Shown here one piece after another: positions 5,010-58,397 of a stretch of 64,000 bases of DNA. Source of the DNA: Heterodontus francisci. Taxonomy: Eukaryota. The first letter of the stretch is position 1, and the number at the start of each line of letters is the position of its first letter. The notes under the pieces were generated by a model. It did not search any database, had not been told where the DNA came from, and saw only the letters and a list, made by a program, of their open reading frames with translations. Both the position numbers and the translations under genes were made by a program. The DNA is taken from the NCBI RefSeq assembly GCF_036365525.1, contig NC_090374.1, positions 149,819,804 through 149,883,803 on the forward strand. The letters run 5' to 3'.

Positions 5010-7250
5010 AGGAGGTATTAGAAAGGCTGGGCTGAACTTAAAGTTGATAAGTCACCAGGTCCAGATGGGATGCATCAGAGGATACTGAGGGAAGTAAGGG
5101 AGGAAATTGTGGAGGCACTGGCCATAATCTTCCAATCCTCCTTAGATACAGGGATGGTGCCAGAGGACTGGAGAATTGCAAATGTTACACCTGTGTTCAA
5201 AAAAGGGCGTAAGGATAAACCCAGTAACTACACAGTGGCGCAGTGGTTAGCACCGCAGCCTCACAGCTCCAGGAACCTGGGTTCGATTCTGGGTGCTGCC
5301 TGTGTGGAGTTTGCAAGTTCTCCCTGTGTCTGCGTGGGTTTCCTCCGGGTGCTCCGGTTTCCTCCCACATGCCAAAGACTTGCAGGTTGATAGGTTAATT
5401 GGCCATTATAAATTGCCCCTAGTATAGGTAGGTGGTAGGGAAATATATAGGGACAGGTGGGGATGTGATAGGAATATGGGATTAGTGTAGGATTAGTATG
5501 AATGGGTGGTTGATGGTCGGCACAGACTCGGTGGGCCGAAGGGCCTGTTTCAGTGCTGTATCTCTAAACTAAAACTAAACTAAACTACAGGTCAGTGAGT
5601 CTAACCTTAGTGGTGAGAAAGCTTTTAGAAATGATAATCCAGGACAAAATTAACAGTCACTAGAGCAAGTATGGAAAAGCCAACATGGATTTGTTAAAAG
5701 TAAATCATGTTTAGCTAACTTGATTAAGATTTTTGATGAGGTAACAAAGAAGGTTGATAAGAGCAATGCAGTTGATGTGATGCACATGGATTTCCAAAAG
5801 GCGTTTGATAAAGTACTACAAACTAGGCTTGCCAGCAAAGTTGAAGCTCATGGAATAAAAGGGACAGGGGCAGCATGGATACAAAGTTGGCTGAGTGACA
5901 GGAAACAGAGAGTAGTGGTGAACAGTTGTTTTTTTGGACTGGAGGAAAGTATACAATGGGGTTCTCCAGGGATTGGTACCAGAACCATTGCTTTTCTTGA
6001 TATATATTAATGACCTAGACTTGGGTGTGCAGGGCACACTTTCAAAATTTGCAGATGACACAAAACCTGGAAGTCATAGAGTCATTCACAGCACAGAAGG
6101 AGGTCATTTGGTTTATCGAGTCCATGCCAGCTCTCCACGGAGCTATCCAGTCAGTCGCACTCCCCTGCTCGATCCCTGTAGCCCTGGAAGTTTATTTCCT
6201 TCAAGTGGCCATTCAATTTCCTTTTGAAGTCATTGATTGTCTCCACTTCTACCAATCTTGTGAGCAGAGAGTTCCAGGTCATTACCACCCACTGCGTAAA
6301 AAAGTTCTTCCTTATATTCCCCCTGCATCTCTTGCCAAAACCTTCAAAATGTACCACTGGTAAATGGGAACAGTGTTTCCTTGTCTAACTTATCTAAGCC
6401 TTATCTTGTACACTTGTATCAAATCTCTCCTCAATCTCCTTTATTCTAAGAAGCATTGTGAACTGTAAGGAGGATGCTAATAAGACTTCAAGAGGACATA
6501 GACTGGTAATGGGTGGACAGTGTGAAGTGATACATTTGGTAGGAAGAATGAGGAGAGACAATTTAAAATAAAGGGTGCAATTCTAAAGTGGGTGCAGGAA
6601 CAGAGAGACCTGGTGGTATATGCACAAATCGTGGAAGGTTGAGAAAATGGTTAAAAAGGCATATGAGATCCTCGGCTTTATAAAGAGAGGCATAGAGTAC
6701 AAAAACTGGAGTATTATGTCTAATTCTGGGCACTACACTTTAGGAAGCATGTAAAGACTTTAGAGAGGGCACAGAAAAGATTTACAAGAATGGTTCCAGG
6801 GATGAGAGACTTCAGTTACGTGGACAGATTATTGAGGCTGGGACTGTTCTCCATAGAGAGGAGCAGCTTAAAAGGAGATTTGATAGAGGGGTTCATTATG
6901 AGGGGTCTAGACAGAGTAGATAGAGAGAAATTTTTTCCATTGACAGAAGGGTTGAGAACCAGAGGACACTAATATAAGGTGAATTGCAAAAGAACCAATG
7001 GCGACATGAGGAAAAAAGTTTTTACGCAGTATGTGGTTAGGATCTGGAATGCACTGCCTGAGAGTGTAGTGGAGGCAGATTCAATCGCGGCTTTCAAAAG
7101 GGAATTGAATAAGTATCTGAAGAGAAAATTTTTCAGGGCTGCAGGGTAAGTACAGGGGAGTAGGAGCTGATTTGTTCTTGCAGAAAGCTGGCATGGGCAC
7201 AGTGGGCCAAATGGCTTCTTTCTAGCTGTAACCATTCTGTGATTCTATGA
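5010..7250 (+). mobile_element. 5'-truncated decayed CR1 LINE, with nested SINE (5231-5585) and an antisense CR1 3' fragment (~6075-6450)
   Basis: KSPGPDG-like, VPEDWRIANVTPVFKKG, MDFQKAFDKV, SKFADDTK motifs; 3' ATTCTGTGATTCTATGA tail. Confidence 0.85.
5231..5585 (+). mobile_element. tRNA-derived SINE (HE1/V-SINE-like)
   Basis: A box TGGCGCAGTGG, B box GGTTCGATTC, core TGTGTGGAGTTTGCAAGTTCTCCC, (CTAAA)n tail; further copies at 22811, 44864, 63309. Confidence 0.85.
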
Positions 7251-7641
7251 TTGTACAGCACTGTGTTTGGGTGATATGCCTGCCATAGCTGAATAGCGGG
7301 AGATATATTGAGCCAGCTAGTGGTGGGTGTGAGGCTGCATTCAGTGGAAGGTGCGTGACAGTGAAGTGGATTATGTGAATGTTAAGCATGAGTCCTGAGT
7401 GCTAAGGACTGTTGCTGAATGAGTGATGGGGTTGTGGTGCATTGAGCAGCGTGTGAAGTTGGTGGTGTGGTGGGTAGGAGATGTTATGTGCAGATGCATT
7501 CACTGACCTGACCACCGCATGGAGTCATTAAATTCTTCCAGCACTGCTGTCAGGTCCTTGGGGCCAGACTGCTGGAATTGACCTCCATGGCAACATGCTC
7601 TCACTCCCTTCGGAGGGTGTTCCTTGAGGGCCTTTTGGCCC

Positions 7642-7898
7642 TGTTATGTGATCGCCTTTAAGAGTGATGTCCCTTTAAGAGCTTAGTATGCTAATGAGCC
7701 AAATACCAGGATGCAGTCATGTGACTCAGAGACAGAGTCACTCTGCAACTGTAACACCCAGAGTAAGGTTCTGTAAATAGTTCGCTCAGTACTGTCTAAT
7801 AGTTTAACTGTTTAATTAACCTGTTTGAGATCTTCAACAACCTGGACTCCATGCATCTCAATTATGTTGCATCAGTCAACATAAAAGAACTCATTATA
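7642..7898 (+). repeat. 5' LTR of the myc-bearing element
   Basis: TG start; direct repeat of 10453-10710; followed immediately by the PBS. Confidence 0.92.
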
Positions 7899-7913
7899 TG
7901 GTGGCAGCTGTGG
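7899..7913 (+). promoter_or_regulatory. Primer binding site, tRNA-Leu type
   Basis: TGGTGGCAGCTGTGG matches the complement of the vertebrate tRNA-Leu(AAG) 3' end, TGGTGGCAGCGGTGG, at 14/15 positions. Confidence 0.8.
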
Positions 7914-8592
7914 TGAAAAGACAAAGTCTAAGATTGAAGACCACAGGTAAAACAGCTGTAAAAACTAGCCTTCCTACAACCAAAAGAGAGAAAGTTCCAC
8001 AAAAATACTAGCCCAAACAGTAGAAAGAAAAAAGGAACTTGCCTCCAGCTGTAGAAGACAGAGGACAGAATGACAGGCTGCAAGTAAATTGGGTGAGTTG
8101 TTGTGCCAACTGGCTTAAAAAAAAGCTTTGAAGTCCTTCAAAAGATTGCCTTTTTCTAAAAGCTCTGTGTAAAAATAAACAGGGAAGATCTGACTCCTCT
8201 GCCAGGCTGATCAAGGTCGGCGGCATTACAGGAGACGCCCGATTTCAAAAAGCACGGGAAAACCATATCATTGCAGAACATCATCCACGCAACCAAAGTT
8301 AAAAAAACATTAAACTACTTGAGCATGAATAAGAGCTTCCATTCATGAAGCCACAGTAAAAAGACCCATTAAAACAACTCAAGCATGAAGAACATAAACA
8401 AACTCTAGCAGCTAATGAGCAGCTGTGTAAACAAAACAGGCTTAAATGCTGGATGCAGGATAAACACACAACATGAGCAAACACCTCCTCTGAATCAAAG
8501 CTGGTATAAATAACAGTATCTTAAAGAGGAAACCATGCAGAGTCATAGAATAAGTCTTAAAGCAAGTTTTAAAGCAAAAGAAAAGCAGAAAT

Positions 8593-9300
8593 ATGGATAT
8601 CAAATTTCCCAGCATGAACTGGAAGGCCTTGGATATCCTATCCGAGTTCCAACTGTTCAAACAAAGAATGCAGTTATTCTGCACAGACCAAATAATTGTA
8701 GAACCAGAAAAACAGGCTGTAAAAATACTAATAGCAGTTAGAAATGAGAGATTACACAGAATCAACACCTCTGGACAATCTTACGAGGACCAGAAAGATC
8801 CCGCAAAGATATGGAAAGTGCTAGAAGATCAGCTCCGATTGCGAATGAATTTTAGAATTCACCGCCTGGAATTGATGTCCTACAGGCAACAGCCACAGAA
8901 ATCAATAGACCAGTTCATCAGTAGATGCCGTAGTAAGGGCAATGAATGCAACTTCTCAGAAACTGAGCTGTCGGACTGAATAATAGAACTAGTTATTGTA
9001 TCAACACCCATTGAAGCATTTCAGAAAGACCTCTTGGGGCAAAAGAACGGTCACAGCATTGGTGCGCTGCTGGAAGATGGCAGGAAATATGAAGCCATTG
9101 TAGCTGGACAACAGCACCTGTAAGCACCAGCTGCAGCCAACAGAATCTGCACCATAACCAGGTCGAAAAAAGCAAGCAAGCTGTGTGGTAAGTGCAGTCA
9201 CAGTGAAATTGCCCTGCATTTCGTGACCTGTGCAAGGCGTGCAGTGCAAAAGGACACCGGGCTCGCCTATGCAAGAAATCTGGCTCCAAAGACACAGCCA
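8593..9300 (+). pseudogene. Gypsy gag (decayed) with CCHC zinc knuckle
   Basis: ORF 8593-8979 MNWKALDILSEFQLFKQRMQLF...YRQQPQKSIDQFISRCR; downstream CKACSAKGHRARLC (CX2CX4HX4C) at 9231-9272; internal stops. Confidence 0.85.
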
Positions 9301-9455
9301 GAAGTCACAATAGGAAACAGACAGACAACAGGTGCAGCAACAGAGCAAGGAGAACACCAGAGTCCTGCATAAACGTAAGCATACACAAAGTCCACATCAA
9401 AACAGACCTGAAACAAGACTCAACGAGGAGTAATTCTCAGCCAGAAGACAAACAG

Positions 9456-9840
9456 GTGTTCCACATTGTGAACCTGACACATCACATTGATGAAGTCAAA
9501 CAACTGGAAGCTTTCACCACTATTAACATCAAGTGCCCAAAGAAAGCTGGCAAACATACATTCTGGGTCAAGTCTGACATAGGCGCTAGCGCAAATATCC
9601 TATCAGTCCGAATACTCAAAGATATGTACCAGAATCATTGGAAATCAATGATACAACTGACAACTGCCAAGTTATCTGCATACAATGGGTCACCCATTCC
9701 TTGCAGTGGCACATTAACAATGAAATACAGCTATGGGAAACCACAGGTATTCTACCTAGTAGATACAAGCAGACCAGCAGTGGCAGCATTATTAGCGTGT
9801 AAGGACCTCAACATCATAACTATCCACGAGAGCATTGCCA
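9456..9840 (+). pseudogene. Retropepsin-type aspartic protease (degenerate active site), N-terminal part of ORF 9456-9977
   Basis: VKSDIGASANIL (D-T-G-A like), LSAYNGSPIPCSG, FYLVDT, ACKDLNII. Confidence 0.8.
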
Positions 9841-9879
9841 AAGGAAAATCTCCAAGGACTGGGACCCACTTGCAGACTC

Positions 9880-10295
9880 TGACCAGCATCAAACGGTGCA
9901 TTCTGGAAATCCAGCAACAGCATAACTATGCCGCGCCTTCACTTCTGCTCTCTAGAGAACCGCCAGCACCACAATGAGCCAGACGGACAGGTACCTCCAT
10001 GAGGGCAAGTACTCCTCCCCCAACAAGTCCTCAACCTTGAACCCAAGACCTTCAGGTACGGAGGATGAGGAGAGGTGATGGACACGCAATGTCCAGAGGA
10101 GGCAGAGGAGGAATGAGTTGAAGCATTGTTAATTGGTTCTTCGAGATGAGGTGCTGGAACTCTCCAAGGTCTCAAAAGTGGTCATCTTGAGAAAAGCAAC
10201 AGAGTTTGTTAGCAGGCTGAAGGCAGAGCAACAGAAACTGAATGCAGAGAGGGAGAAACTTCAGAAAGAACAGCAACAGATGAGAAGCAAATTCT
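9880..10295 (+). pseudogene. MYC-family: Captured Myc-family C-terminal fragment (Myc box IV, NLS-like motif, bHLH-LZ), decayed
   Basis: KRCILEIQQQHNYAAP (9891-9938) vs c-Myc KRCHVSTHQHNYAAP; after a frameshift near 9983: [82 protein letters not shown] vs c-Myc [69 protein letters not shown]. Confidence 0.92.
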
Positions 10296-10438
10296 CCGAC
10301 CAAGAGTTGTCAAACCACCAAGACGATATATGGACCTTTGAGCCTCTATACTTGTAAAGTTCACAATATCTATACCTGTGTAAATAATTTTGATGTTATC
10401 TAATTTTATGTGTTTTTACTTTTAGCATACGAGTCTTT

Positions 10439-10452
10439 GGAAAGAACGGAGA
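10439..10452 (+). promoter_or_regulatory. Polypurine tract
   Basis: GGAAAGAACGGAGA immediately before the 3' LTR. Confidence 0.7.
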
Positions 10453-10710
10453 TGGTGTATAATCACCTTTCAAGAGTGATGTCCCTTTAAGATCTTAGAA
10501 TGATAATGACCCAAGTACCAGGACGCAGTCATGTGACTCGGAGCCAGAGTCACTCTGCTACAGTAACACCTAGAGTCAGGTTCTGTAAATAGTTAGCTCT
10601 GTACTGTATAATAGTTGAGCTGTTTAATAAACCTGTTTGAGATCTTCAACAACCTAGACTCCACACATCTCATTTATGTTGCATCAGACAACATAAAAGA
10701 ACTCATTACT
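10453..10710 (+). repeat. 3' LTR of the myc-bearing element
   Basis: Direct repeat of 7642-7898; contains AATAAA; followed by TSD GGCCC. Confidence 0.92.
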
Positions 10711-10929
10711 GGCCCCCCACAGAAATATGGCCTCCCTCCTCCTGTCCACCTCCTGTCCACCTCCATGACAAGGGCCTCCAGCACAACATCCTCAAACCAC
10801 GAAGCCCTCTCTCTGCCCTGGTGATCCATCTCCCTTGGTTGCAATTGCATCAGCAGTATTCAATAGCAGTCTCCTGTGAATCAGTACAGCTTCCCTTTAA
10901 GAGTGACAGTCTGCCTTTAAGAGCTGGAG

Positions 10930-11510
10930 GCGAGCTAGAACACAAAAGCAAGGAAGTTATACTAAACTGTTATAAAATACTAGTAAGGCCCCAGCTGGAG
11001 TATTGCGGCAAATTCTGCGTATTAAGAAAGATGTCAAGCCCTTACAGAAAGTGCAGATGTGACAGGTATGAAGAATTTTAGTTTTGTGAAGAGACGAGAG
11101 AAACTGGGGTTGTTCTCTTTAGAGCAGAAAAAGTTAAGGGAATATTTGATGGAGGTGTTCAAAAATCGTGTAGGGTTTTGATAGAGTAAATAAAGAAAAA
11201 CTGTTTCCAATGGCAGAAGGGTCAGTAACCTAAGGACATAGATTTAAGGTAACTGGCAAAAGAACCAGAGGCGACATAACAAACTTTTTTTTTAAGGAGC
11301 AAGTTGTTATGATCTGGAATGCACTGCCTGTAGAGGAGTTGGAAGCATATTCAATAATAACTTTCAAAAGGGAATTGGATAAATACCTGAAGGGAAGAAA
11401 ACTTACAAGGCTATGCGGAAAGAGCAGAGGAGTGGGACTAATCGGATAGCTCTACCAAAAAGCTGGCACAGGCACGATGGGTCAAATAGTCTACTTCATT
11501 CTATGATTTT
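10930..11510 (+). mobile_element. CR1 LINE 3' fragment
   Basis: KSKEVILNCYKILVRPQLEYC, IWNALP and ATTCTATGATT tail. Confidence 0.8.
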
Positions 11511-13585: not shown

Positions 13586-15598
13586 ACTGTTTACTATTAT
13601 TTAATTGTCTAGATATATTCTCAAGAATATTGACTGTGGCACAAACAAACTCAAAGGGGGGAATTTTAACCCGCAAAAACAGGTGCGTTTGGGTTGGGTG
13701 GGATGTTAAATGTAGGAACAACAGGGATCAGATGACAACAAAAGTAGATGGTGGAATCTTCTGCACTTGTAAAATATTCAGCCAACTAGCAGGCCGTGTT
13801 TGGTGTCCTTAAGAATACATGAGGGTCAATGGGAGGACCTGCAGGAATGTCCAGCCAGCAGTCCCACCAGGAGAGGTGAGTGCTGCTAAAGAAGAGGGAG
13901 ATCCAAGGGGGCACCTCAAAATGGAGGCACTAACGAAAGGCTCCAAAGTCAGTTTAAAAAACAAGGCCCAGAACTGTGAGGGGCCTCAGAGAGGAGGAGG
14001 AACCCCTCCACAGGTATGCCTGCGGCCACAATTAGACCTCTTTTGAGCCTTGTGGCTCCCTGACACTGGCATTTCATTCAACCTTAGATGGCCCTCCAAC
14101 CTCACACTGAGAGACCACCCCCCAAGTGTTGCTGGGCTACCGACACATAGGGGGGCCCGTGCGACGCCAGGAAAATTCCATTCAGATCAGAAAATGGTCC
14201 TTGATTGAGCCTTAATTAAGCTGATTTTCTGTCAGCCCTTTCTCCATTCCCATGTGGGCTTCATGTATCTTCTGATGAAGTTCTTCCTGCATTGTTTTGG
14301 GTAAGATTATTCTGGATCCGGCTAGCAGAATATCATCTTCTAATGAAATATCATCTCTAAGAGACCAGTACTGCCGTATTGCTGGCTGTATTTGCTGTAT
14401 TTTATCAGGCCATCCCTGGATTACTTGCTGAGAGAGTATCTGCAACTCCTTGTCTTTACTGGTCTCATCGCTAATTTGACTCAGTTTTGGTGGTGTTATG
14501 TTCACCAGGTGATGAATCTTTATACCCAGATCTTCTATCTCGTGTTTCCCCTGTGGCGACAACTGAGATAGGGTGTCTGCCAGCACCATTTCTCTTTCTG
14601 GCTTGTATTTCAGAGTGAAATCATAACTCTGAAGCCTCAAGTCTTGCTGGTGTTTTACATAGATTTTTCTTGTAGATCTGCTCCAGTGAACGATGATCAG
14701 CCTCCACTATGATCTTTCTCCCACTGAGTTATGTATGGAATTTCTCACATCCATACACGACTGCCAAAAGCTCTCTTTCTAAGTTGGCATATCTGGTCTC
14801 ACCTGAGGTTAGGGCTTTGGATACGAATGTTATTGGCATTTCCTCTTGTACCAGAGCTGCTCTCAGTCCTTTTGTAGAAGCATCTACTTGCAGGATGACA
14901 GGTTTCTTTCTGTCACAGTATGACCAACTTGTCTCCTTACATACTACCTTTTTGAGTTTGATGAAACTCCTTTTGTATGACTCTGACCCCTGGTACTCGA
15001 CATGTTCTTTCATCAGCTCCTGCATGTTTGCTGTCTGTTCCGACATATGCGGTATGAAGTAGCACATGTATTGGATCAAGCCAAGGCAACTTCTCAACTC
15101 TCTCTTATCTCTTGGGGCTTCCACCCCCGAGATAACTGAGATTCTTTCAGGACTTTGCTTTACTCCGTAAGGTGTGTACACCATTCCAAAGAACTGGCAT
15201 TCTGCTACTTTCACAATGCATTTGTCTGCATTTAGCTTGATCCCAGCTTTCCTTGTTCTCTCCACGGCTTCATTTAGATGGTAGATATGATCTTTTCCGT
15301 CTACACCATATATCTGGCTATCATCAGCTATGCTGACTGCTCCTTTACATCTCCTGTATGTCTCGTCTACTTTCTGTTGGAACACATCCTGGCTCACTTG
15401 AAGGCTAAAAGGTAGACACAAGAATTTGTACCACCCGAAGGGTGTGTTGAATGTTGTCAACAGCAAAGATTCCTCATCAAGCTTCACATTCCAGTAGCTA
15501 TTTCTAGCATCAAACTTGCTTAAAGCTTTTGCCCCTGCTAGTGCTGGTGCCATCTCTTCCAGTGTTGGAATAGGGTAATGATTCCTCTTTATTGCTTG

Positions 15599-16609
15599 TG
15601 TTACAACCAAGACAGGAGGAGTGCACTGTTCATTCTAGTCTCACTTTTCCACAGGTCACAATATATATTTAAATTTTCCCATTTACTGACACGGTCAATC
15701 ATATACTCTATTTCTCCCAGAATAAAACACACTAACCAGGTTTCTTTAGTAAACAACAAAATTATGAGTTTATTATAAAACAAGTCTTAACCAGTAATGA
15801 AGTAAAGCATAAACACACAGATTGAAATATTAAAGTTCCCTTTGTACCTTAGCCCCTCACACTCACACATGCATACACCGGTTAACCAGGAAAAAAAAGG
15901 GATTTTTGTTTTTAGAGCTCTATTACAGATAAATAAACCCACTTGGGCTGAATACTTGCTCATTCTTGAAGAAACAGCAGATGAGATACGTTGTGTTCCA
16001 AAACTGGCACACAGGCTGGCATCCGAGTACACATAGAGGGGTGACTGGGATCTTTTAGGACAGTTCTTTTCAGGTGGTGTTGAGAATTAATTTAGCAGGC
16101 TTTTCTTCAAAGACAGGAGATGAGATGAGTTAAAGTAGATTTCTCGGGTCTTTTAGAGAGGTGCTGGAAAGCTGAGCTGGGTTGTGGCCTTCTCTCCTTC
16201 CTTGGGAATTCTTTTCTCTCCTTGGAAGTTCTCTCTCTCCTTGGAAGTGCTCTCCCTTTTTATACAGTTCAATGCCAACTCAAAACAATTCAAAAAAGAA
16301 ACAGGAGGTCAACCTTTTGACCTTTATCAATCTTAACCTGTCACTTCTTTGTAAACAATTTCTCCAGGCATCCAAAGTTCTCTGCTGTTTATTGAGCTGG
16401 ATGTCGGGTGGTTTCCCGGAAAGGCTTGTTTTCCTCACAAGACCTCTCAGTGCCCCTTTAAAAAAGCATTTCCAGGGACTGTTTTTCAAAGTCAAGTGGC
16501 CTTTATGTGACCCCCCTTTGAAAGCCCCAAAGTTTAACATTTCTTCAATCTTTCAAAAATGAATCCTCAAAAAATATATTTAACAAACACAGACAACACT
16601 TTCGTAACA
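15599..16609 (-). mobile_element. Solo LTR nested in the Gypsy RT
   Basis: TGTTAC...GTAACA termini; perfect 4-bp TSD CTTG (15595-15598, 16610-16613); excision restores DLNQAIKR; orientation inferred from TTTATT. Confidence 0.85.
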
Positions 16610-27621: not shown

Positions 27622-30410
27622 GAACAAAGAACAAAGAACAGTACAGCACAGGAACAGGCCATTCGGCCCTCCAAGCCTGCACCGATCTTGATGCCTGCCT
27701 AAACTAAAACTTTCTGCATTTCCGGGGACCGTATCCCTCTATTCCCATCCTATTCATGTATTTGTCAAGACGTCTCTTAAACGTCGCTTTCGTATCTGCT
27801 TCCACCACCTCCCCCGGCAGCAAGTTCCAGGCACTCACCACCCTCTGTGTAAAGAACTTGCATCGCACATCCCCTCTAAACTTTGCCCCTCTCACCTTAA
27901 ACCTATGTCCCCTAGTAACTGACTCTTCCACCCTGGGAAAAAGCTTCTGACTATCCACTCTGTCCATGCCGCTCATAACTTTGTAAACCTCTACCATGTC
28001 ACCCCTCCACCTCCGTCGTTCCAGTGAAAACAATCCGAGTTTTTCCAACCTCTCCTCATAGCTAATGCCCTCCAGACCAGGCAACATCCTGGTAAACCTC
28101 TTCTGTACCCTCTCCAAAGCCTCCACGTCCTTCTGGTGGTGTGGCGACCAGAATTGCACGCAATATTCTAAGTGTAGCCTGACAGAAGTTCTGTACAGCT
28201 GCAGCATGACTTGCCAATTTTTATAATCTATGCCCCGACCTATGAAGGCAAGCATGCCGTATGCCTTCTTGACTACCTTATCCACCTGCGTTGCCACTTT
28301 CAGTGACCTGTGGACCTGTACGCCCAGATCTCTCTGCCTGTAAATACTCCTAAGGGTTCTGCCATTTACTGTATACTTCCCACCTGCATTAGATCTTCCA
28401 AAATGCATTACCTCACATTTGTCTGGATTAAACTCCATCTGCCATTTCTCCGCCCAAGTCTCCAACCGATCTATATCCTGCTGTATCCTCTGACAATCCT
28501 CATCACTATCCGCAACTCCATCAACCTTTGTGTTTTCCGCAAACTTACTAATCAGACCAGCTACACTTTCCTCCAAATCATTTATATATACTACAAAGAT
28601 CAAAGGTCCCAGCACTGATCCCTGCGGAACACCACTAGTCACATCCCTCCATTCAGAAAAGCACCCTTCCACTGCTACCCTTTGTCTTCTATGACACAGC
28701 CAGTTCTGTATCCATCTTGCCAGCTCACGTGTGACTTCACCTTTTGTACCAGTCTGCCATGAGGGACCTTGTCAAAGGCTTTACTGAAGTCCATATAGAT
28801 AACATCCACTGCCCTTCCTTCATCAATCATCTTTGTCACTTCCTCAAAAAACTCAATCAAATTAGTGAGACATGACCTCCCCTTCACAAAACCATGCTGC
28901 CTCTCGCTAATAAGTCCATTTGTTTCCAAATGGGAGTAAATCCTGTCCCGAAGAATCCTCTCTAATAATTTCCCAGCACTGATGTAAGGCTCACCGGCCT
29001 ATAATTTCCTGGATTATCCTTGCTACCCTTCTTAAACAAAGGAACAACATTGGCTATTCTCCAGTCCTCTGGGACCTCACCTGTAGCCAATGAGGATGCA
29101 AATATTTCTGTCAAGGCCCCAGCAATTTCTTCCCTTGCCTCCCTGAGTATTCTGGGGTAGATCCCATCAGGCCCTGGGGACTTATCTACCTTAATGCTTT
29201 GCAAGACACCCAACACCTCCTCCTTTTTGATAATGAGATGACTGAGACTATCTGCACTCCCTTCCCTAGGCTCATCATCCACCAAGTCCTTCTCTTTGGT
29301 GAATACTGATGCAAAGTACTCATTTAGTACCTCGCCCATTTCCTCTGGCTCCACACATAGATTCCCTTCTCTGTCCTTGAGCGGGCCAACCCTTTCCCTG
29401 GTTACCCTCTTGCTCTTTATATATGTATAAAAAGCCTTGGGATTATCCTTAATCCTGTTTGCCAATGACTTTTCATGACCCCTTTTCGTCCTCCTAACTC
29501 CTTGCTTAAGTTCCTTTCTACTGTCTTTATATTCCTCAAGGGATTCGTCTGTTCCTAGCCTACCAGCCCTTATGAATGCTTCCTTTTTCTTTTTGACTAG
29601 GCTCACAATATCCCGCGTTATCCAAGGTTCCCGAAACTTGCCAAACTTATCCTTCTTCCTCACAGGAACATGCTGGTCCTGGATTCTAATCAACTGACCT
29701 TTGAAAGACTCCCACATGTCAGATGTTGATTTACCCTCAAACAGCCGCCCCCAATCTAAATTCTTCAGTTCCTGCCTAATATTGTTATAATTAGCCTTCC
29801 CCCAATTTAGCACCTTCACCCGAGGACTACTCTTATCCTTATCCACAAGTACCTTAAAACTTATGGAATTATGGTCACTGTTCCCGAAATGCTCCCCTAC
29901 TGAAACTTCGTCCACCTGGCCGGGCTCATTCCCCAATACCAGGTCCACTACGGCCCCATCCCTAGTTGGACTATCTACATATTGTTTCAAGAAGCCCTCC
30001 TGGATGCTCCTTACAAATTCTGCCCCATCTAAGCCCCTAGCACTAAATGAGTCCCAGTCAATATAGGGGAAGTTAAAATCACCCACCACTACAACCCTGT
30101 TACTTTTACATCTTTCCAAAATCTGTCTACATATCTGCTCCTCTACCTCCCGCTGGCTGTTGGGAGGCCTGTAGTAAACCCCCAACATCGTGACTGCACC
30201 CTTCCTATTCCTGAGCTCCACCCATATTGCCTCGCTGCACGACCCCTCCGAGGTGTCCTCCTGCAGTACAGCTGTGATATTTTCCTGAACAAGTAATTCA
30301 ACTCCCCCACCCCTTTTACATCCCCCTCTATCCCGCCTGAAGCTTCTAAATCTTGGAACATTCAGCTGCCAATCCTGTCTTTCCCTCAACCAAGTCTCTG
30401 TAATAGCAAC
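27622..30410 (-). mobile_element. Young 5'-truncated CR1 LINE (APE endonuclease part plus RT, two frameshifts)
   Basis: ORFs 28962-30389, 28675-28929 and 27704-28672 with GDFNFP, SDHN, KSPGPDG, GVPQGSVLGP; (GAACAAA)n tail; TSD GTCT at 27618-27621 and 30411-30414. Confidence 0.95.
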
Positions 30411-31338
30411 GTCTTGTGACGGACTGTGTGAGGGTGTGGACAGGAGAACAGGCAGGTGTAGGGGGACTTTATTTGGTCAGTCAACCTTTACTTATTGTAA
30501 GTTCAGGGCTCTCAGTTGTGCTGTCTGTGCCCTTGTTGCCGGCTGTCCTCTCCATGCCTATAGTCTGCTTTATTATACTAGTTGTGGTTGCATGGGCCTC
30601 TTAAATCAGTCCTCTCCATCTGTCTGTGGATGCCTCACCTAAGGTCATCAGCCAGGAACGGTCACTAATTAACTACCCTGAGACATGGATTTGAGTTATT
30701 AGAGCTGGAATGGTGGATTGCTGAATGACGGATGAGTTATGGCAGCTCCCCGGGTATCTGGCACTTTGTGATCAGATGATCAGCATTGCACATTAGCTGC
30801 ACATTCCTGGGGATGAAAGGCCTTTCTGCTCATAAAGTAGAGAGGGTTTTCATATGGCTTTGAGCAGCATTTGAGTTCCACTGATTGCTCCCTGTGACTC
30901 CCTGACTGGAGAGCGCTCTCTCTCTCTCTTTCTCTGTCTCTTTGGTTCTCTGGTTCCATTGGGAAGGAAATGAATTGTGTAGCTCTCCTAAAGAGAGCAT
31001 CAGTGGCTTTCTTGCTACAGCGGTGAGCTGCTGACTGGCTGATGAAGCATAGACTGCTGGATGTTGCCTGGTTTACATTGAGGCAGTGGAGAATTTGAGT
31101 AGTGCAGCCAATGCTGTACTCCTTGTGGAAGAGGGCTACGGGTTTTCAGCCAGCATAGAATCATAACAGCACGAAAGGAGTTAACTTATTTCCTCAATAG
31201 CCTGCAGCGTGAAACACAGCCTTCTGAGACACTGACATTCAGGAACGTCTAAATAAGACCTTTTAGGTTACAGTGTACACACAGAGAGAAAAGCCTCCAA
31301 TCTGGCCTCTTACTTGTCCTCAACCTCTTCATAGTATA

Positions 31339-40249: not shown

Positions 40250-43200
40250 AAGCAGAAAAAAAGGCTTATTATAAATGCCAAGTTCATCATTCACTAGAGA
40301 ATCAAACTGAATACAGAAAGTCCAGAGGATAAATGAAAAAGAAAGTAAGAGGGGTAAAGAGAGTATATGAGAATAAATTAGTGACTAACATAAAAGGGAA
40401 CTCAAAATCCTTTTATAAACATAAATAGTAAATGGAAGGATGGGCCCAATTAGGGAACAAAAAGGAGATCTTATGGAGGCAGAGAGCATGACTGAGGTAC
40501 TAAATGAGTACTTTGCATCTGTCTTCACTAAAGAAGAGAATGCTGCCAATGTCACAGCAAAGGAGAAGGTAGCAGAGAAATTGGATAGGATAAAGATAGA
40601 TAAAGAGGCAGTACTTAAAAAGGTTGGCAGCACTCAAAGTAGAAAAATCACCTGGTCCAGATGGAATGCATCCTAAGTTGCTGAAGGAAGTAAGGGTGCA
40701 AATAGTGAGGCTCTGGCCACAATCTACTGATCCTCCTTGGATATGGGAGTGGTGCCAGAGGACTGAAGTATTGAAAATATTATAGCTGTGTTCAAATAAA
40801 AAGTGTATGGGATAAACTCGAGAATTACAGGCCAGTCAGCCAAATGACGGTGGTGGGAAAACTTTCAGAGACAGTAATCTGAAACAATATTTATTGTCAC
40901 TTGGAAAAATATGGGTTAATGAATGAATGAGAATCAGCACAGATTTGTTAAAGGCAAATTATGTTTGACTGACTATTACTTCAAAGAACTTGATCAAGTT
41001 CGAGAGGGTACTGCAGCTGTTGTGTATATATGGAGTTTCAAAAATGTTTCATAAAGTACCACATAATAGTCTTGTTAGCAAAATTGAAGCCCATGGGCTT
41101 AAAGGAGCAATGGCTGCATGGATACAAAATTGGTTAAGGAACAGAAATTGGTGGGTAGTGGTGAACATAAGAAATAGGAGCAGGAGTTGGCTATATGGCC
41201 CCTCGAGCCTGCTTTGCCATTCAATAAGATCATGGCTGATCTTCGACCTTAACTCCACTTTCTCGCCAGATCCCCACATCCCTTGATTCCCTTGGAGTTC
41301 AATAATCTATCCGCCTCAGGCTTGAATGTACTTAATGACTGAGCGTCTACAGCCCTCTGAATTTTCTACCCCAAAGATTCACTACCTTTTGAGTGAAGAA
41401 ATTTTTGCTCATCTTTGAATGGCTGACCCATTATCCTGAGACTCCCTAGTTCTAGATTCTCCAGACAGTGGGAACAGCTTCTCAGTATCTACCCTGTCAA
41501 ACCCACTCAGAATCTTATATGTTTCAATAAGGATCACCTTTCATTCTTCTAAACTCCAGAGAGTGTAGCACGAGTTTACTCAATCTCTCCTTATAGGATA
41601 ATGCTCTCATCTCTGGAATCAATCTAATAAATCTTAATTGCACCCCCTCTAAGGCAAGTATATCTTTCCTTAGGTATGGAGACCACATTTATCCACAGTA
41701 CTCCAGATGTGTTCTCACCAAAGCCCAGTACAATTACAGCAAGACTTCCTCACTGTTAAGAACTACGAACATCCGAATTAGGAGCAGGAGTAGGCCACTC
41801 TGCCCTTCGAGCCTGCTCCGCCATTCAATAAGTTCATGGCTGAACTGATTATTTCACATTTCCACCTGCCCCTGATAACCTTCACCCCCTTGCTTATGAA
41901 GAATCTATCTATCTCTGCCTTAAAAATATTCAAAGACTCTGTGTCCACCGTCTTTTGAGGAAGAGAATTCCAAACACGACCCACTGAGAGAAAAAATTTC
42001 TCCTCCTCTCTGTTTTAAATGGGCGACCCCTTATTTTTAAACAGTGACCCCTAGTTCTAGATTCTCCCACAAGGGCAAACATCCTTTCCACATCCACCCT
42101 GTCAAGACCCTTCAGGATCTTATATGTTTCAATCAAGTCGCCTTTTACTCTTCTAAATTCCAGCAGATACAAGCCTAGCCAATCTTTCCTCATAAGACAG
42201 CCGCCCATTCCAGGTATTAGTCTAGTAAACCTTCTCTGAACTGCTTCCAACGCATTTACATCCTTCCTTAAATAAGGAGACCAATACTATACACAGTACT
42301 CCAGATGTGGTCTCACCAATGCCCTGTATAACTGAAGCATACCCTCCCTAATTTTGTATTCCATTCCCCTTGTGATAAAAGATAACATTCTATTAGCTTT
42401 CCTAATTACATGCTGTACCTGCATACTAACCTTTTGCGATTCATGCACTAGTACATCCAGATCCCTCTGCATCTCAGAGCTCTGCAATCTCTCACCATTT
42501 TGATAATATGCTTCTTTATTATTCTTCCTGCCAAAGTGGACAATTTCCCACTTTCCCACATTATACTCCATTTGCCAGGTCTTTGCCCACTCACTTAACC
42601 TATCTATATCCCTTTGTAGCTCCCTTATGTCCTCTTCACAAGTTACTTTCCTACCAATCTTTGTGTCATCAGCAAATTTAGCAACCATACCTTCAGCTGC
42701 TTCATCTAAGTCATTTATATAAATTGTAAAAAGTTGAGGCCCCAGCATTGATCCCTGTGACACATCACTCGTTACATTTTGCCAACCAGAAAATGACCCA
42801 TTTATGCCCACTGTCTGTTTCCTGTTAGCTAGCCAGGCTTCTATCCATACCAATAAGTTACCCCCTACACCATGAGTTTTTATTTTCTGCAAGAACCTTT
42901 GATGTGGCACCTTATCAAATGCCTTCTGGAAATCTAAGTACAATACATCCACCGGTTGTATTCCAACCCTTTGCAGTAAAGGCCAACATACAATTGCTTT
43001 CTTTATTGCTTGCTGTACCTGCATGTTAACTTTGTGTGTTTTGTATACATTGGCTCCCAAATCCCACTGAACACCAACATTAAATTGTTTCTCACCATTT
43101 AAAAAATATTCTGTTTTTCTATTCTTGCCAAAGTGAATAACCTCACTTCGTTTGCACATTATACTACAGCAGTTGTTCTTTCAGACTGGAGGGAAATGTA

Positions 43201-46861: not shown

Positions 46862-49650
46862 TTAGAGTCATAGAGTTTTACAGCACAGAAACAGGCCCTT
46901 CAGCCCAACATGCCTGCACCGACCATCAAGCACCCGTCCTAACTGATCCCATTTTCCCGCACTTGGCCCATAGCCTTGTATGTTATGGTGTTTCAAGTGC
47001 TCATCTAAATATTTCTTGAATGTTGTGACTGTTCCTGCCTCTACCACCTCTTCAGACAGTGTGTTCCAGATTCCAACCAACCTCTGGGTGAAAAAATTCC
47101 TCCTCAACTCCCCTCTAAACCTCCTGCCCCTTACCTTCAATCTACGCCCCCTAGTTATTGACCTCTCCACTAAGGGAAAAAGTTTCTTCCTATTTATCCT
47201 ATCAATGCCCCTCATAATTTTGTATACCTCAATCAGGTCCCCCCTCAGCCTTCTCCGCTCCAAGGAAGCAACCGCAGTCTATCTAGCCTGTCTTCATAGC
47301 TGAAATGCTCCAGCCCAGGCAACATCCTGGTGAATCTCCTCTGCACCCTCTCCATTGCAATCACCTCCTTCCTATAGTGTGGTGACCAGAACTGTACACT
47401 GTACTCCAACTGTGGCCTAACTAGCGTTTTATACAGCTCCATCATAACCCCCCTGCTCTTATATTCTGTGCCTCAGCCAATAAAAGCAAGTATCCCATAT
47501 GCCTTCCTAACCACCTTATCTACCTGTGCTGCTGCCTTCAGTGATCTTTGGACAAGCACCTCAAGGTCTCTCTGACCCTCTGTACTCCCTAGGGTCCTAC
47601 CATCCATTGTATATTCCACTGCCTTGTTAGACCTCCCAAAGTGCATCACCTCACACTTCTCAGGATTAAACTCCATTTGCCACCGCTCCGCCCATCTTAC
47701 CAGCCCATCTATATCGTCCTGTAATCTAAGGCTTTCCACCACACTATTTATGACACCACCAATTTTCATGTCGTCTGCGAACTTACTGATCATACCCCCT
47801 ATATTTACGTCTAAATCATTAATGTACACTACAAACAGCAAGTGTCCCAGCACCGATCCCTGCGGTACACCACTGGTCACAGGCTTCCACTCGCAGAAAC
47901 AACCCTCTACCATCACCCTCTGCCTCCTGCCACTAAGCCAATTTTCAGTCCAATTTGCCAAATTACCCTGGATCCCATGGGCCTTTACTTTCTTAACCAA
48001 TCTCCCATGCGGGACCTTATCAACAGCCTTACTGAAGTCCATGTAGACTACATCAACTGCTTTATCCTCATCTACACCTCTAGTCACCTCCTTGAAAAAT
48101 TCAATCAAATTTGTTAGACATGATCGCCCCCTGACAAAGCCAAGCTGACCGTCGCTGATTAATCCCTGCCTCTTCAAGTGGAGATTAATCCTGTCTCTCA
48201 GAATTTTTTCCAGTAATTTCCCTACCACTGATGTTAGACTCACCGGCCTGTAATTGACTGGTTCATCCCTGCTACCCTTCCTAAATAATGGTACCACATT
48301 CGCTGTCCTCCAATCCTCTGGTACCTCTCCTGTGGCCAGAGAGGATTTGAAAATTTGTGTCAGAGCACCCGCTATCTCCTCCCTTGCCTCACGTAGCAGC
48401 CTGGGATACATCTCATCTGGGCCTGGGGATTTATCCACCTTCAAGCCCGCTAATACTTCCTCCTTTTCAATGCTAATTTGATCAAGTATATCACAATCCC
48501 CTTCCCTGATCACTACACCTACATCTTTCCTCTCCATAGTGAACACAGATGAAAAATAATCGTTCAAAACCTCCCCTATGTCCTCCGGCTCCGCACACAG
48601 ATTGCCTCAATGATCCCTAATGGGCCCCACTTTTTCCCTGGTTATCCTCTTGCCCCCAGCATACTTATAAAACACCTTGGGATTTTCCTTAATCTTGTCT
48701 GCCAGTGATTTTTCATGCCCCCTTTTCGCTCTCCTAATTACTTTTTGAAGTATTCCCCTACACTTTCTATACTCCCCTAGGGACTCTGCTGTTTTCAGCA
48801 CTCTGAATCTGCCATACGCCACCTTTTTTTTCCTTATCCAATCCTCTATATCCCTTGACATCCAGGGTTTCCTTGACCTGTTGGTCCTACTCTTCACCTT
48901 TACAGGAACATGCTGCACCTGAACCCTCACAATTTCCCTTCTAAATGACTCCCACTGGTCTGATGTTGACTTTCCTGTAAGAAGCTGCTCCCAGTTCACT
49001 TTGGCCAGATCCTGTTTTATCATATTGAAATCTGCTTTCCCCCAATTCAGTACTCTTATTTCCGGTCCCTCTATGTCCTTTTCCATAACAATCTTAAATC
49101 TTACGGAGTTATAGTCACTATCCTGGAAATGCTCCCCCACTGCCACTTCTAACACTTGTCCGGCTTCATTCCCTAGGATTAACACCAGTACCGCTCCTCC
49201 TCTTGTAGGACTCTCTACGTGCTGACTCAAAAAGCTCTCCTGAATACACTTGAAGAATTCTGCCCCCTTTAAGCTTTTTGCTCTGAGACTATCCCCTCTA
49301 ATATAGGGAAAGTTGAAATCCCCTACCATTATTGCCCTATTATTTTTCCACCTCTCTGAGATTTGCCTACATATCTGCTCCTCTATCACTGCCTGACTGT
49401 TTGGAGGTCTGTAGTACACTCCCAGCCAAGTGACTGCCCCCTTTTTGTTTTTAAGTTCTACCCATATGGCCTCATTAGAGGAGCCTTCCAGGATATCATC
49501 CCTCCTTACTGCAGTAATTGACTCCTTAATCAACAGTGCAATGCCACCTCCTCTTTTACCCCCTCCCCTGTCACGTCTGAAGATTCTATACCCTGGAATA
49601 TTAAGCTGCCAGTCCTGCTCTTCCCTCAACCATGTCTCAGTAATAGCAAT
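46862..49650 (-). mobile_element. 5'-truncated CR1 LINE (endonuclease part plus RT, frameshifted)
   Basis: ORFs 48607-49629, 47473-48567, 47245-47445 and 46868-47263 with GDFNFP, KSPGPD, GVPQGSVLG, KFADD. Confidence 0.95.
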
Positions 49651-50421
49651 AAAACAGTACGTCTCATCGGATGGTGATTGGCAGCTGACTTTCCCCTACG
49701 TGGTGCATAGGGCACTGAGGCTAATTGTAGGGCTCCTACCATTGCCAAATGAAGATTAGTTAACAGGGTGTGGAACCTGAATCCATTTGGGTCTGTACGG
49801 TTCAGTTACACATTGGCTTCACCAAATGGGGGAAAAGTTAGTTCTTGTTATTAATAAGGCTGTACACACTGCGATTGTAGCTAACTATTGTCATCAAAGT
49901 GGGATGTTACTAGTCAGATCTGACCTTTGTGTCCTTTGGTGGGCCTTCTCTGTGCCTAATGGCGCATGAGGCAACCCATTTTCTCCACTGTTTTTACATC
50001 CAGCAGATCGTGCTCTGGGTTGTTCCTGTAACAAAGGAAACAGGTTGTTAGCCTGACTCTCAACTCACTGCCAGGAAAAACAGCTAGATGTGATGGAGAC
50101 ATTGCCACTCCACACCCATTGTACCTAACTACCCCACTGGATGGCAACCCAATACTTGGAGACTAGAATGCTCATCTCCAGAACTGTCTGGAGTGGGTCT
50201 CAAATGCATAACCTTCCAACTCCGAGGCAGAAATTCTGCCGCTGAACAAAGGCTCACTTTGGCCTTCAGTTAGAAGCTTGAAATTTATAACAACTCCCAT
50301 CATTAGTAATAGAATTCTATCTAGTAAAAGATGAAAACTCTTTAATTCTGAGGTTAAGTTTAACATTGTGCCAAAATGCTAAGTTAACTTGGTTTCATTT
50401 CGAGATTTTTTTCTGATACAG

Positions 50422-56337: not shown

Positions 56338-58397
56338 GCAGTGGTTTAAGAAAGTCCACTATCGCCTTCTCAGGGTAACTGGGGATGGGCAATAAAATCC
56401 AGCATTGCCAGCAACACCCACATCCCAAGAATGAATATAAAATATACAATACATAGACCTGCCATCATTCCTGTTTCTCCAAATTGATTCAGTTGAAGTA
56501 GGCTTGTAATATCTCCTCTTGGATTACAAAGCAAGGTTGGAGTATATATTCAGTTATTAGACCAACCTGTGTTCACTAGTGTATCCCTGTTATAAGAGGC
56601 TGTTTGAGCTTCTAGTCCAGAACAGAACAAGCAGCCACATACTTCCTCTAGAATCTCTCTCAGGTCAGTGCTTCTGAGGTATGTTTGAAGATGTGTCTCG
56701 TTTAGTCTCTCCCCTTTCTTTGGCCCTCCCCTTCTACTTGTTCTACATATATTTTTCACTCCCTTTTGGTTCCTCGCATTTCGTGTACCAGTCTCCTACA
56801 AGAAAGGGGTCTGGCTAAGGGGCAGCCAGATAATACAATTGCATTTGGAACTGCATAGTTCTTTGTGAGAATATTGCACCTTATAACCTCAGTGTCTAGG
56901 ATAGTGTGGCTAAAAAGGGCTTTTATTTCTTGTCCTGGAGCACTGAGGAATTCTGTGTGAACCCAATTAGGACCAATGACTTTAGCAAGGCCTTCGACCA
57001 AACCTGAAGTTGCCAAATTTATTTAATGGGACTCTGCTGCAGCAAGCAAAACAGAAAGACATTTTCAAAGAGGTACGGTAGTTGCCCCTTCATGCCTTAA
57101 GTCTGCCTAAGTACTCAGGAGTATTGATTTTATTTGTAGTTTCCTACAATTCTGCAATAATTATGTATGATACGTTAAAACATTCACTTTTGCATAAGAG
57201 GAAAATGGTGTGATATTGAAAATCCTCACAAATTGAATGGTGGCTTAATATCTGTGACTAAAATCAGGGCTTGACAGGAGAGATACATAGAAGTAACAAC
57301 ACAGTAACAGGCCATTCAGCCCAACCAATTTATGACAGTGTTCATTCTTCCCATGAACAAATCGTCTAACCATATGTACTCACTCATTTCCCAATGATTG
57401 TTGATTCGACAGCCTGCTTCATTTCAGGAGACATTGCTGTCAACCTAGCAAAAAACGGGAAAACAAACAGTTGAAGTAAAGAGTAAGAAGCAAACAGAGT
57501 TATATAAAGATCGTTTGCCGCTTCCTGCCTCTGCAAACCCATCTTCTTCCTCCATGTCACAGAAAGACAGAATATCTAATTCCACAGGTGTCCTCTTCAA
57601 CTCAATAGAGCTGTTCTGGTGGACATTGAGCAGTGAGCAAGGCCCTGGTGTGAAGTCCAACCCAAGCTGCCTCATTTACCACCTGAAAATGGCTTACCAC
57701 CCCGCTTATGTTGGAGCTCTGGCTGCTGCCGTACTCAAAGGGACCTTCCACTAGGCAGTCAAAGCCCCGCCTGTTGAGGGAAGTAGGCCCTTTTAATTAG
57801 TAAATTGAGGTCCAAAGATGTACATGGGATCCTAGCTGCCATTTGATAGACAGCTGGGTGGTGCATGCAGAGTGAAGGCTCCACCCAGTTTTACCTGGTG
57901 GTACCACAGAAGAAGCCCCAAGAAGGTAATTTTAAAGTATTTTTGTGGAATCAGGAGGAGCAAGGTCTGCACAAAAGTAACGTGGGCCACTGCTGATGTG
58001 GTTCCACCTTAGATGGCATCCTTCACCCGCCCTGCCATACCTACCATCCTGTTGGCTGGTTCGGTCTCCATCCAGCCTGATATTATGCCATCTCAGAGCC
58101 CGTGAGCTGCAGCATAGTGCCCACTTGGTGCACACAGCTCACTAGATAATAAAGCTCAGCACCTCAAAATGGTCCAGACCTCCTGTCAGCAATATCGAGT
58201 GGCTGACAGTTAAAATCTAACTTTAAATCTACTTTAGTTGCCAGAATGGTAATCCTGCACTAATGGATAGTCCTCTGGCTGGGAGGTCTCAAGGTCTAAT
58301 ATGAACCTACTTATTGGAAACACTGATGCACTGAGCTGTATAGAAACACTGTTGGGTGGAAATTTGCCCTTGCTGTGCCCATTATGCCTAAATCAGA

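What the first reader, a model, noticed from the sequence alone, without database searches (positions are those of the whole stretch)
7642..10710. LTR retrotransposon that has transduced a Myc oncogene fragment in place of its RT/integrase
Seen in sequence: paired LTRs, GGCCC TSD, tRNA-Leu PBS, PPT, gag with CCHC knuckle and protease, but no RT, RNaseH or integrase core. Instead about 410 bp encode Myc box IV (KRC..QQHNYAAP), an NLS-like PAPQ*AR and the Myc bHLH-LZ ([24 protein letters not shown], heptad L-L-L-M). Established: this is the C-terminal, exon-3-like part of Myc proteins, and avian retroviruses such as MC29 arose when myc replaced replication genes, giving helper-dependent gag-myc fusions. 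Inference: the intact TSD and LTR pair around the cargo suggest the chimera was reverse-transcribed and integrated as a unit. That would make it a helper-dependent myc-carrying Gypsy family in a shark-like genome. I do not know of a described case but cannot search. This copy is dead: stops at 9975, 10076 and 10130, one frameshift, and basic-region His and Glu changed to Arg.
Basis: partly seen in the sequence, partly recalled or inferred. Interest (0 to 1): 0.92.

Follow-up and report, generated by a model that had tools for sequence, protein, structure and literature searches.

The report
Shark retrotransposon family carrying truncated myc
An old shark retrotransposon swapped its replication genes for a spliced, front-truncated piece of a host myc-family gene and was then copied hundreds to thousands of times; this mirrors how tumour viruses capture oncogenes, but the captured piece lacks myc's activating part and appears to have travelled as a passenger.

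Summary
Observation confirmed. 7642-10710 is a decayed LTR element (GGCCC target duplication, tRNA-Leu primer site, gag, protease, polypurine tract) with 464 bp of Myc C-terminus where pol should be. The donor is not MYC or MYCN but the host mych gene (87% nt). It is one copy of a large family: 626 places match the myc/integrase-tail junction motif (rough estimate about 2,500), at separate sites with different target duplications. Longer copies join mych exon 2 exactly to exon 3, so spliced mRNA was captured. Both junctions lie at 6-7 nt microhomology with an RT-bearing parent family in the same genome. One capture, in frame at both ends, was followed by deletions. Against the oncogene reading: Myc boxes I and II were never captured, the E-box-reading Glu is replaced in 90% of copies, and the cargo shows no detectable purifying selection while gag and protease do. 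Best reading: a helper-dependent Gypsy derivative with a mostly passive cargo. The mechanism is known (LTR-mediated retrocopies); the cargo and the copy number are unusual. No prior description was found in three direct paper searches. This scan noted a similar capture (CLIP1) in another shark genome.

The parts
7637..7641 (.). 5' target-site duplication GGCCC
7642..7898 (+). 5' LTR; holds GTCATGTGAC (CATGTG-type E-box/M-box) at 7716
   Evidence: CATGTG in 49 of 57 LTRs of myc-carrying copies and 18 of 22 parent LTRs
7899..7913 (+). Primer-binding site for tRNA-Leu
   Evidence: 14 of 15 letters complementary
8593..9272 (+). Broken gag (capsid region and zinc knuckles; stops 8977 and 9121, frame change near 9200)
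   Evidence: 48% aa to sea-urchin P0244 residues 3-248; 79-84% nt to most parent copies
9498..9829 (+). Aspartic protease (catalytic motif DIGAS at 9576), in frame with the myc piece
9830..10293 (+). Captured mych cDNA, exon-3 part only in this copy: box IV, NLS region, basic-HLH-leucine zipper; stops 9975, 10076, 10130, one 1-nt loss; NLS Lys (9972), basic His (10085) and Glu (10097) positions changed
   Evidence: 87.3% nt to host mych exon 3, G000:C16
10294..10341 (+). Remnant of the integrase C-terminal tail of the parent element
10439..10452 (+). Polypurine tract
10453..10710 (+). 3' LTR
10711..10715 (.). 3' target-site duplication GGCCC

Best explanation
A non-autonomous Ty3/Gypsy derivative made by a double template switch. 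In a particle of an active Gypsy family, reverse transcriptase jumped from the element RNA onto co-packaged, spliced mych mRNA and back, at 6-7 nt microhomologies. This replaced about 2,184 nt of pol (RT, RNase H, integrase core) with about 714 nt of mych (roughly residues 115-353 of 361). The product kept LTRs, PBS, PPT, gag and protease, so parent elements could copy and integrate it in trans. Shorter deletion forms (B, and the window's form C) arose later and spread. The mych piece rode along without detectable selection on its amino acids; what seems to have been kept is an open frame running on from the protease. Shown: structure, donor, intron loss, microhomology, shared 3' junction, amplification, parent family, selection contrast. 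Inferred: the template-switch step itself, trans-mobilisation, the order A then B and C, and the passenger status.
For: Exon 2 is joined to exon 3 with the 1,707-nt intron gone in 25 of 47 copies first fetched and 33 of 60 motif-picked copies. Microhomology GGATGCA at the 5' and CAAATT at the 3' junction between parent copies and host mych. All three forms share the 3' junction. 626 genome places match the 26-nt chimeric junction motif, control 0; 813 match the parent form of the site. Exact and all-different 5-bp TSDs in 9 of 22 two-LTR copies. RT-bearing copies with the same LTR, gag, protease and tail (RVT_1 then Integrase_H2C2); LTR divergence overlaps (median K2P 0.114, n=22, vs 0.122, n=9). 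Lineage-level variants are depleted of amino-acid changes in gag (transitions N:S 6:25 vs 223:122, p 1e-6) and protease (6:10 vs 131:64, p 0.03) but not clearly in the cargo (13:14 vs 245:143, p 0.15; p 0.32 and 0.77 at other thresholds). Invariant Myc residues are hit as often as variable ones (median 0.117 vs 0.110).
Against: All three 5' junctions are in frame with the protease (commonest spacing 195 nt in 9 of 23 A, 93 in 18 of 30 B, 48 in 31 of 36 C copies) and the founding 3' junction is in frame with the integrase tail; four of four in frame has a chance near 1%. Counting all substitution types, the cargo does show a mild deficit of amino-acid changes (exon 2 p 0.01, exon 3 p 0.06 at the 15% threshold), though this test is biased by the transition-rich make-up of common variants. 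Power is low (27 common cargo variants). The purifying signal in gag and protease could be inherited by recombination with parent lineages. The myc form reached about the copy number of its parent, which a pure passenger need not do.
Confidence: 0.62

Rival explanations
1. Same origin, but the cargo mattered. The Gag-protease-mych fusion released a Myc fragment with no activation domain that could still pair with Max. It acted as a dominant-negative or decoy in early embryos or germ cells, and lineages that lost nuclear import and E-box reading were favoured, either because the intact fragment was toxic or because a pure Max sponge helped the element.
For: The top element-lineage change is the invariant E-box-reading Glu (differs in 90% of 97 copies), with the basic His (60% of 96) close behind. 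The losses are graded by form: Glu kept in 4 of 11 A, 0 of 20 B, 0 of 15 C; NLS Lys kept in 8 of 11 A, 3 of 18 B, 1 of 14 C; neighbouring Leu and Arg residues are kept in 84-100%. Frames are preserved at the 5' junctions. The LTR holds a CATGTG E-box-type site. Zebrafish mych is broadly expressed just after the mid-blastula transition (PMC3958507, passages). The roles of His, Glu and the NLS Lys are recalled.
Against: Enrichment of lineage-level changes at invariant residues is not significant (3 of 9 vs 33 of 149, p 0.43). The HLH-zipper, which a Max decoy would need, shows no purifying selection (3:3 vs 71:47, p 0.68). The LTR site is also in the parent family, so it predates the capture. 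The residues were singled out after looking.
Confidence: 0.22
2. MC29-like oncogenic transduction: the cargo drove proliferation of the cells that expressed it and so favoured spread of the element.
For: In-frame gag-protease-myc fusion replacing replication genes, helper dependence and very high copy number.
Against: Boxes I and II lie upstream of the 5' junction and are absent from every copy examined (earliest start host position about 3689); the N-terminal region holds the transactivation domain (PMC7780693, passages). DNA-reading residues are lost in most copies. No purifying selection on the cargo. No env was seen between integrase tail and PPT in parent copies.
Confidence: 0.05
3. The frame was kept for the RNA or the particle, not for Myc function: translation running to near the 3' end protects the RNA from nonsense-mediated decay, or the zipper helps the protease pair up. 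The cargo is a structural spacer.
For: All forms end their frame close to the PPT, even where the 3' deletion shifts off the integrase frame; 5' junctions in frame; amino acids free to change.
Against: No direct test; the zipper is not conserved more than the rest. Largely a refinement of the best explanation.
Confidence: 0.1

Closest known systems
LTR-mediated retrocopies of animals (Tan et al. 2016, PMC5131818; passages and section 10 read), including maize Bs1 and human HERV-K/FAM8A1 as cited there
   Same: Partial spliced mRNA inside an LTR element, microsimilarity at both switch points, no poly(A) or own TSD, further rounds of retroposition with shared switch points.
   Different: The copy numbers I saw in that paper are small (Bs1 1-5; two Drosophila cases with more than one site); here at least 626 sites. 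The cargo is a Myc-family transcription factor fused in frame between protease and integrase tail, with three structural forms. I did not read the supplements, which list the zebrafish, chicken and mouse cases.
CrocERV29 KIT-ligand and CrocERV31 nectin3 captures (PMC4299795; passages read)
   Same: Germline LTR elements of a vertebrate that captured a host mRNA, one of them growth-related, and spread with it.
   Different: Those are endogenous retroviruses; KIT-ligand is a whole soluble-form ORF in nine copies under purifying selection and no viral domain was lost. Here a Gypsy element lost pol and the truncated cargo shows no clear selection.
Avian acute leukaemia viruses with v-myc (MC29 and relatives; recalled, not from a call)
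   Same: myc cDNA replaces replication genes, in-frame gag fusion, helper dependence.
   Different: Those are enveloped retroviruses selected in tumours and keep the transactivation domain and DNA binding; this element is Gypsy-type, germline-amplified, carries mych and lacks both functions.
Sea-urchin-type Gypsy elements (nearest database relative P0244, Diadema antillarum; Mag/SURL lineage by recall)
   Same: Gag about 50-60% and RT 60-68% identical at the protein level; single gag-pol layout; tRNA-Leu primer; 5-bp TSD.
   Different: Clade name not tested by a tree with reference elements; P0244 carries no host cargo.
CLIP1-carrying shark LTR family
   Same: Pol replaced by an intron-free host fragment in an amplified shark Gypsy family.
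   Different: Other genome and other cargo; I did not check it.

Membership tests
Ty3/Gypsy LTR retrotransposon (parent family) | Paired LTRs with target-site duplication, tRNA primer site and PPT | tested here: met
Ty3/Gypsy LTR retrotransposon (parent family) | Domain order gag-protease-RT-(RNase H)-integrase | tested here: met
   Parent copies: gag, protease, RT in order; RVT_1 then Integrase_H2C2 and weak rve in L083. RNase H gave no Pfam hit in the broken L083 pieces; it is present in the relative P0244.
Ty3/Gypsy LTR retrotransposon (parent family) | RT falls in a named Gypsy clade (Mag/SURL) | not tested
   No reference set on hand; only likeness to a sea-urchin protein
LTR-mediated retrocopy (Tan et al. 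2016) | Host sequence is partial, spliced mRNA flanked by element sequence | tested here: met
   Exon 2-exon 3 join at the exact splice sites
LTR-mediated retrocopy (Tan et al. 2016) | Microsimilarity at both switch points; no poly(A) or own TSD | tested here: met
   7 nt and 6 nt shared; significance not simulated
LTR-mediated retrocopy (Tan et al. 2016) | Further retroposition as a non-autonomous element | tested here: met
   626 motif sites; different TSDs
LTR-mediated retrocopy (Tan et al. 2016) | Transcribed from the LTR in sense | tested here: inconclusive
   Contigs of two runs guessed to be RNA bridge the 5' junction (records 7 and 22); no strand, and DNA cannot be excluded
Acutely transforming myc retroviruses (MC29 type) | In-frame fusion of myc to gag-region protein with loss of replication genes | tested here: met
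Acutely transforming myc retroviruses (MC29 type) | Myc transactivation domain (boxes I and II) retained | tested here: not met
   Cargo starts downstream of both in all copies examined
Acutely transforming myc retroviruses (MC29 type) | Intact, conserved DNA-binding basic region | tested here: not met
   Glu differs in 90% of 97, His in 60% of 96 copies
Acutely transforming myc retroviruses (MC29 type) | Retrovirus with an env-bearing helper | tested here: not met
   Parent is Gypsy-type; the integrase tail runs directly to the PPT and LTR
Acutely transforming myc retroviruses (MC29 type) | Transforms cells | not testable with these tools
   Needs experiment
mych (fourth vertebrate myc paralogue) as donor | Cargo closer to host mych than to MYC or MYCN, and nested among mych orthologues | tested here: met
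   Only the C16 gene aligns at DNA level; it equals P0124 'myelocytomatosis oncogene homolog'; six element-derived proteins group with it, 96/96

The most novel reading that the evidence does not exclude
The family is a germline record of a retrotransposon that carried an active Myc-network protein. The founding Gag-protease-mych fusion gave a Max-binding fragment without an activation domain, and selection among element lineages then removed its nuclear-import lysine and its E-box-reading residues step by step. That would be either natural disarming of a captured proto-oncogene or the evolution of a Max sponge that changed the element's own expression through the E-box-type site in its LTR.
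Probability: 0.2. Interest if true: 0.9.

Novelty: new variant of a known kind. Interest (0 to 1): 0.68.

Why it matters
Oncogene capture by retroviruses founded cancer genetics, yet its natural frequency and fate in germlines are poorly known. Here a non-enveloped Gypsy element captured a myc-family cDNA by the same route and amplified it to about the copy number of its parent, leaving hundreds to thousands of dated copies. That makes it directly testable whether a captured proto-oncogene fragment is kept, ignored or purged during germline spread. It also matters in practice: seven database proteins of this shark named 'N-myc-like' or 'myc-like' are close to mych (78-93% aa) and at least six are pieces of this family, so myc gene counts and short-read mapping to mych in this genome are unsafe.

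Tried and rejected
Single-copy chimera or later insertion of a myc retrocopy: rejected. Donor MYC or MYCN: rejected, no DNA match. DNA-level capture with the intron: rejected. The LTR motif as a CpG-decayed CACGTG: rejected, CACGTG in 1 of 57 and no CACATG. A B-type subfamily with a shared frameshift (spacing 524 in 4 copies): rejected, the breaks lie at different places. The first protease test in myc-carrying and parent copies used a wrong frame and was repeated; only one search counts. Gag-to-protease frame could not be read: spacings were scattered. Singleton N/S equal to its own expectation (3.26) is partly circular and carries little weight. Absolute dating: the epaulette-shark rate (7e-10 per generation, PMC10587355, passages) gives no usable age in years; only relative limits are given. 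Expression: no RNA holder listed on record; depth is not evidence of expression. A first attempt to map the parent's 3' junction failed and was redone. Fused gag-myc proteins were not among the best 120 longer hits, which is weak evidence. No structure or complex job was run, since a Myc-Max pair would pass by likeness to solved structures. Paper searches aimed at prior descriptions (also 31) gave nothing relevant in the listings; subscription journals and repeat libraries (Repbase, Dfam) were not searched.

Full report
Observation. The stretch 7642-10710 is as described. LTRs lie at 7642-7898 and 10453-10710 (88.6% identical, K2P 0.124), between GGCCC duplications. The primer site at 7899-7913 complements host tRNA-Leu(TAG) at 14 of 15 letters. 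Gag starts at 8593 and is broken; the protease motif is at 9576. Read with X at stops, 9956-10354 hits Pfam HLH, and all 4 PDB hits are Myc. The three stops and the 1-nt loss are confirmed.

Donor. A Myc_N search of the own genome (6.01 Gb) gave 118 matches among 119 scored of 1,624 candidates. Three places had both an exon-2-type and an exon-3-type match close together and were read as host genes (C5, C3, C16). Only the C16 gene aligns to the cargo as DNA: 87.3% over window 9830-10293. Its exon-3 product is identical to P0124, labelled 'myelocytomatosis oncogene homolog' of Heterodontus francisci, i.e. mych. In a protein tree, six annotated element-derived proteins group with this gene (96/96) apart from the mych of six other sharks and rays' lineages sampled, so the capture postdates the split from those species. 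No element-like myc protein of another species was among the best 120 hits of either search.

Family. The 621-nt stretch across both junctions gave 3,883 candidates; all 40 scored matched nearly full length, 39 of them at 86-88%. A 26-nt motif across the myc/integrase-tail junction matches 626 places with at most one mismatch, control 0. Of 47 copies fetched by other means, 12 match that motif, which gives a rough total near 2,500; the sample favours well-kept copies. The parent form of the same site matches 813 places, with 5 of 15 sampled parents matching, a similar total. Among 22 two-LTR copies, 9 have exact, all-different 5-bp duplications (a tenth needed shifted ends and is not counted); among motif-picked copies 10 of 20 have at most one mismatch. 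LTR-pair divergence has medians 0.114 (n=22) and 0.149 (n=23), overlapping the parent's 0.122 (n=9). No copy seen is young. Contigs from coded organisms B and C cover the whole element, and a contig of organism C bridges the 3' junction (record 31), so the family is shared with relatives.

Capture. Longer copies carry the 3' end of mych exon 2 joined at the exact splice sites to exon 3, without the 1,707-nt intron. Among 60 motif-picked copies, 11 are form A (exon 2 from host position about 3689), 22 form B (from about 3726), 15 form C (the window's; exon 3 only) and 12 could not be classed. RT-bearing elements with the same LTR, gag, protease and tail are abundant, with RT followed by integrase. 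Comparing them with host mych shows GGATGCA shared at the 5' switch and CAAATT at the 3' switch. About 2,184 nt of pol (3 of 7 parents measured; the others have insertions or deletions) were replaced by about 714 nt of cDNA. All forms share the 3' switch, so one capture followed by deletions is the simplest account; form B's junction also lies at an 8-of-9 match and could be an independent 5' switch. This fits the double template-switch model of Tan et al. 2016 (PMC5131818; passages and section 10 read, supplements not read).

Frame and selection. The commonest protease-to-cargo spacings are multiples of three in all forms (9 of 23 A, 18 of 30 B, 31 of 36 C copies), and the longest A copies run in frame into the integrase tail. 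Later 3' deletions mostly leave that frame but stop near the PPT. Variants shared by at least 15% of copies, taken as lineage-level changes, were compared with rarer ones, CpG sites excluded. For transitions, gag gives 6:25 against 223:122 (p 1e-6) and protease 6:10 against 131:64 (p 0.03); the cargo gives 13:14 against 245:143 (p 0.15), and p 0.32 and 0.77 at thresholds of 10% and 25%. With all substitutions the cargo shows a mild deficit (exon 2 p 0.01, exon 3 p 0.06), so weak selection is not excluded. Invariant Myc residues are no better kept than variable ones.

What the cargo could do. It begins downstream of boxes I and II in every copy examined; the N-terminal region holds the transactivation domain (PMC7780693, passages). 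The invariant basic-region Glu differs from the host in 90% of 97 copies and the His in 60% of 96; their role in reading the E-box is recalled. Retention falls from form A to C: Glu 4 of 11, 0 of 20, 0 of 15; NLS Lys 8 of 11, 3 of 18, 1 of 14. This looks like stepwise disarming, but invariant residues are not significantly enriched among frequent changes (3 of 9 vs 33 of 149, p 0.43) and the zipper is not conserved. The LTR has a CATGTG site, also present in the parent. Zebrafish mych is switched on broadly after the mid-blastula transition and is not maternal (PMC3958507, passages), which offers a time when its mRNA could meet an active element; this is inference for sharks. Two contigs from runs guessed to be RNA bridge the 5' junction; that does not show transcription.

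Comparison and novelty. The mechanism is known: LTR-mediated retrocopies (PMC5131818) and crocodilian ERV captures of KIT-ligand and nectin3 (PMC4299795, passages). It resembles MC29-type viruses in layout (recalled) but fails three of their defining features. What differs from the cases I read is a Myc-family cargo in a Gypsy element and amplification to hundreds or thousands of sites. Searches for a prior description (listings and abstract starts only) showed none; (Heterodontus + myc + retrotransposon) returned 0 papers. Subscription journals and repeat libraries were not searched. This scan has an unchecked note of a CLIP1-carrying family in another shark genome, so such captures may recur in sharks; nothing on myc was on file for this genome.

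Verdict. Real, amplified and well supported as a structure; a new variant of a known kind. Passenger cargo 0.62, selected decoy or disarming 0.22, frame-only spacer 0.10, oncogenic drive 0.05. Interest 0.68.

Noticed in passing
P0004-P0009, P0129: Seven database proteins of this species named 'N-myc-like' or 'myc-like' are 78-93% identical to mych exon 3; their sequences show element protease-linker or integrase-tail residues, so they are mis-named pieces of this family.
   Followed up: partly
P0244 vs parent copies: The parent family's RT is 60-68% and gag about 50-60% identical to a sea-urchin protein, high for that distance; a horizontal origin is possible.
   Followed up: no
window 6700-7212, 10940-11490, 27707-30476, 42290-43180, 47476-49695, 53808-56345: Many CR1/LINE-like fragments, including an 846-codon open frame on the minus strand at 53808-56345; family label recalled.
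   Followed up: no
window 14732-15634 (-): A 301-codon frame with RT-like motifs of another Gypsy-type element, not matching this family at DNA level.
   Followed up: no
window 10880-10935: A short stretch with two CTTTAAGAG repeats resembling the start of this family's LTR lies 170 bp behind the element; no BLAST hit at E 1e-4.
   Followed up: partly
G000:C34:18727275-19004145: A tandem array of about 80 units of 3,050 bp, each with tRNA-Leu(TAG) and, in the unit checked, tRNA-Ile(AAT).
   Followed up: partly
L054 (G000:C2:8890207 and 8892881): A parent-type integrase site and a myc-type junction lie 2.7 kb apart on the same strand, with no 5' LTR found: a possible tandem or recombinant copy.
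   Followed up: no
P0126: The Scyliorhinus torazame mych model has a 21-residue internal duplication before the basic region, perhaps an assembly artefact.
   Followed up: no
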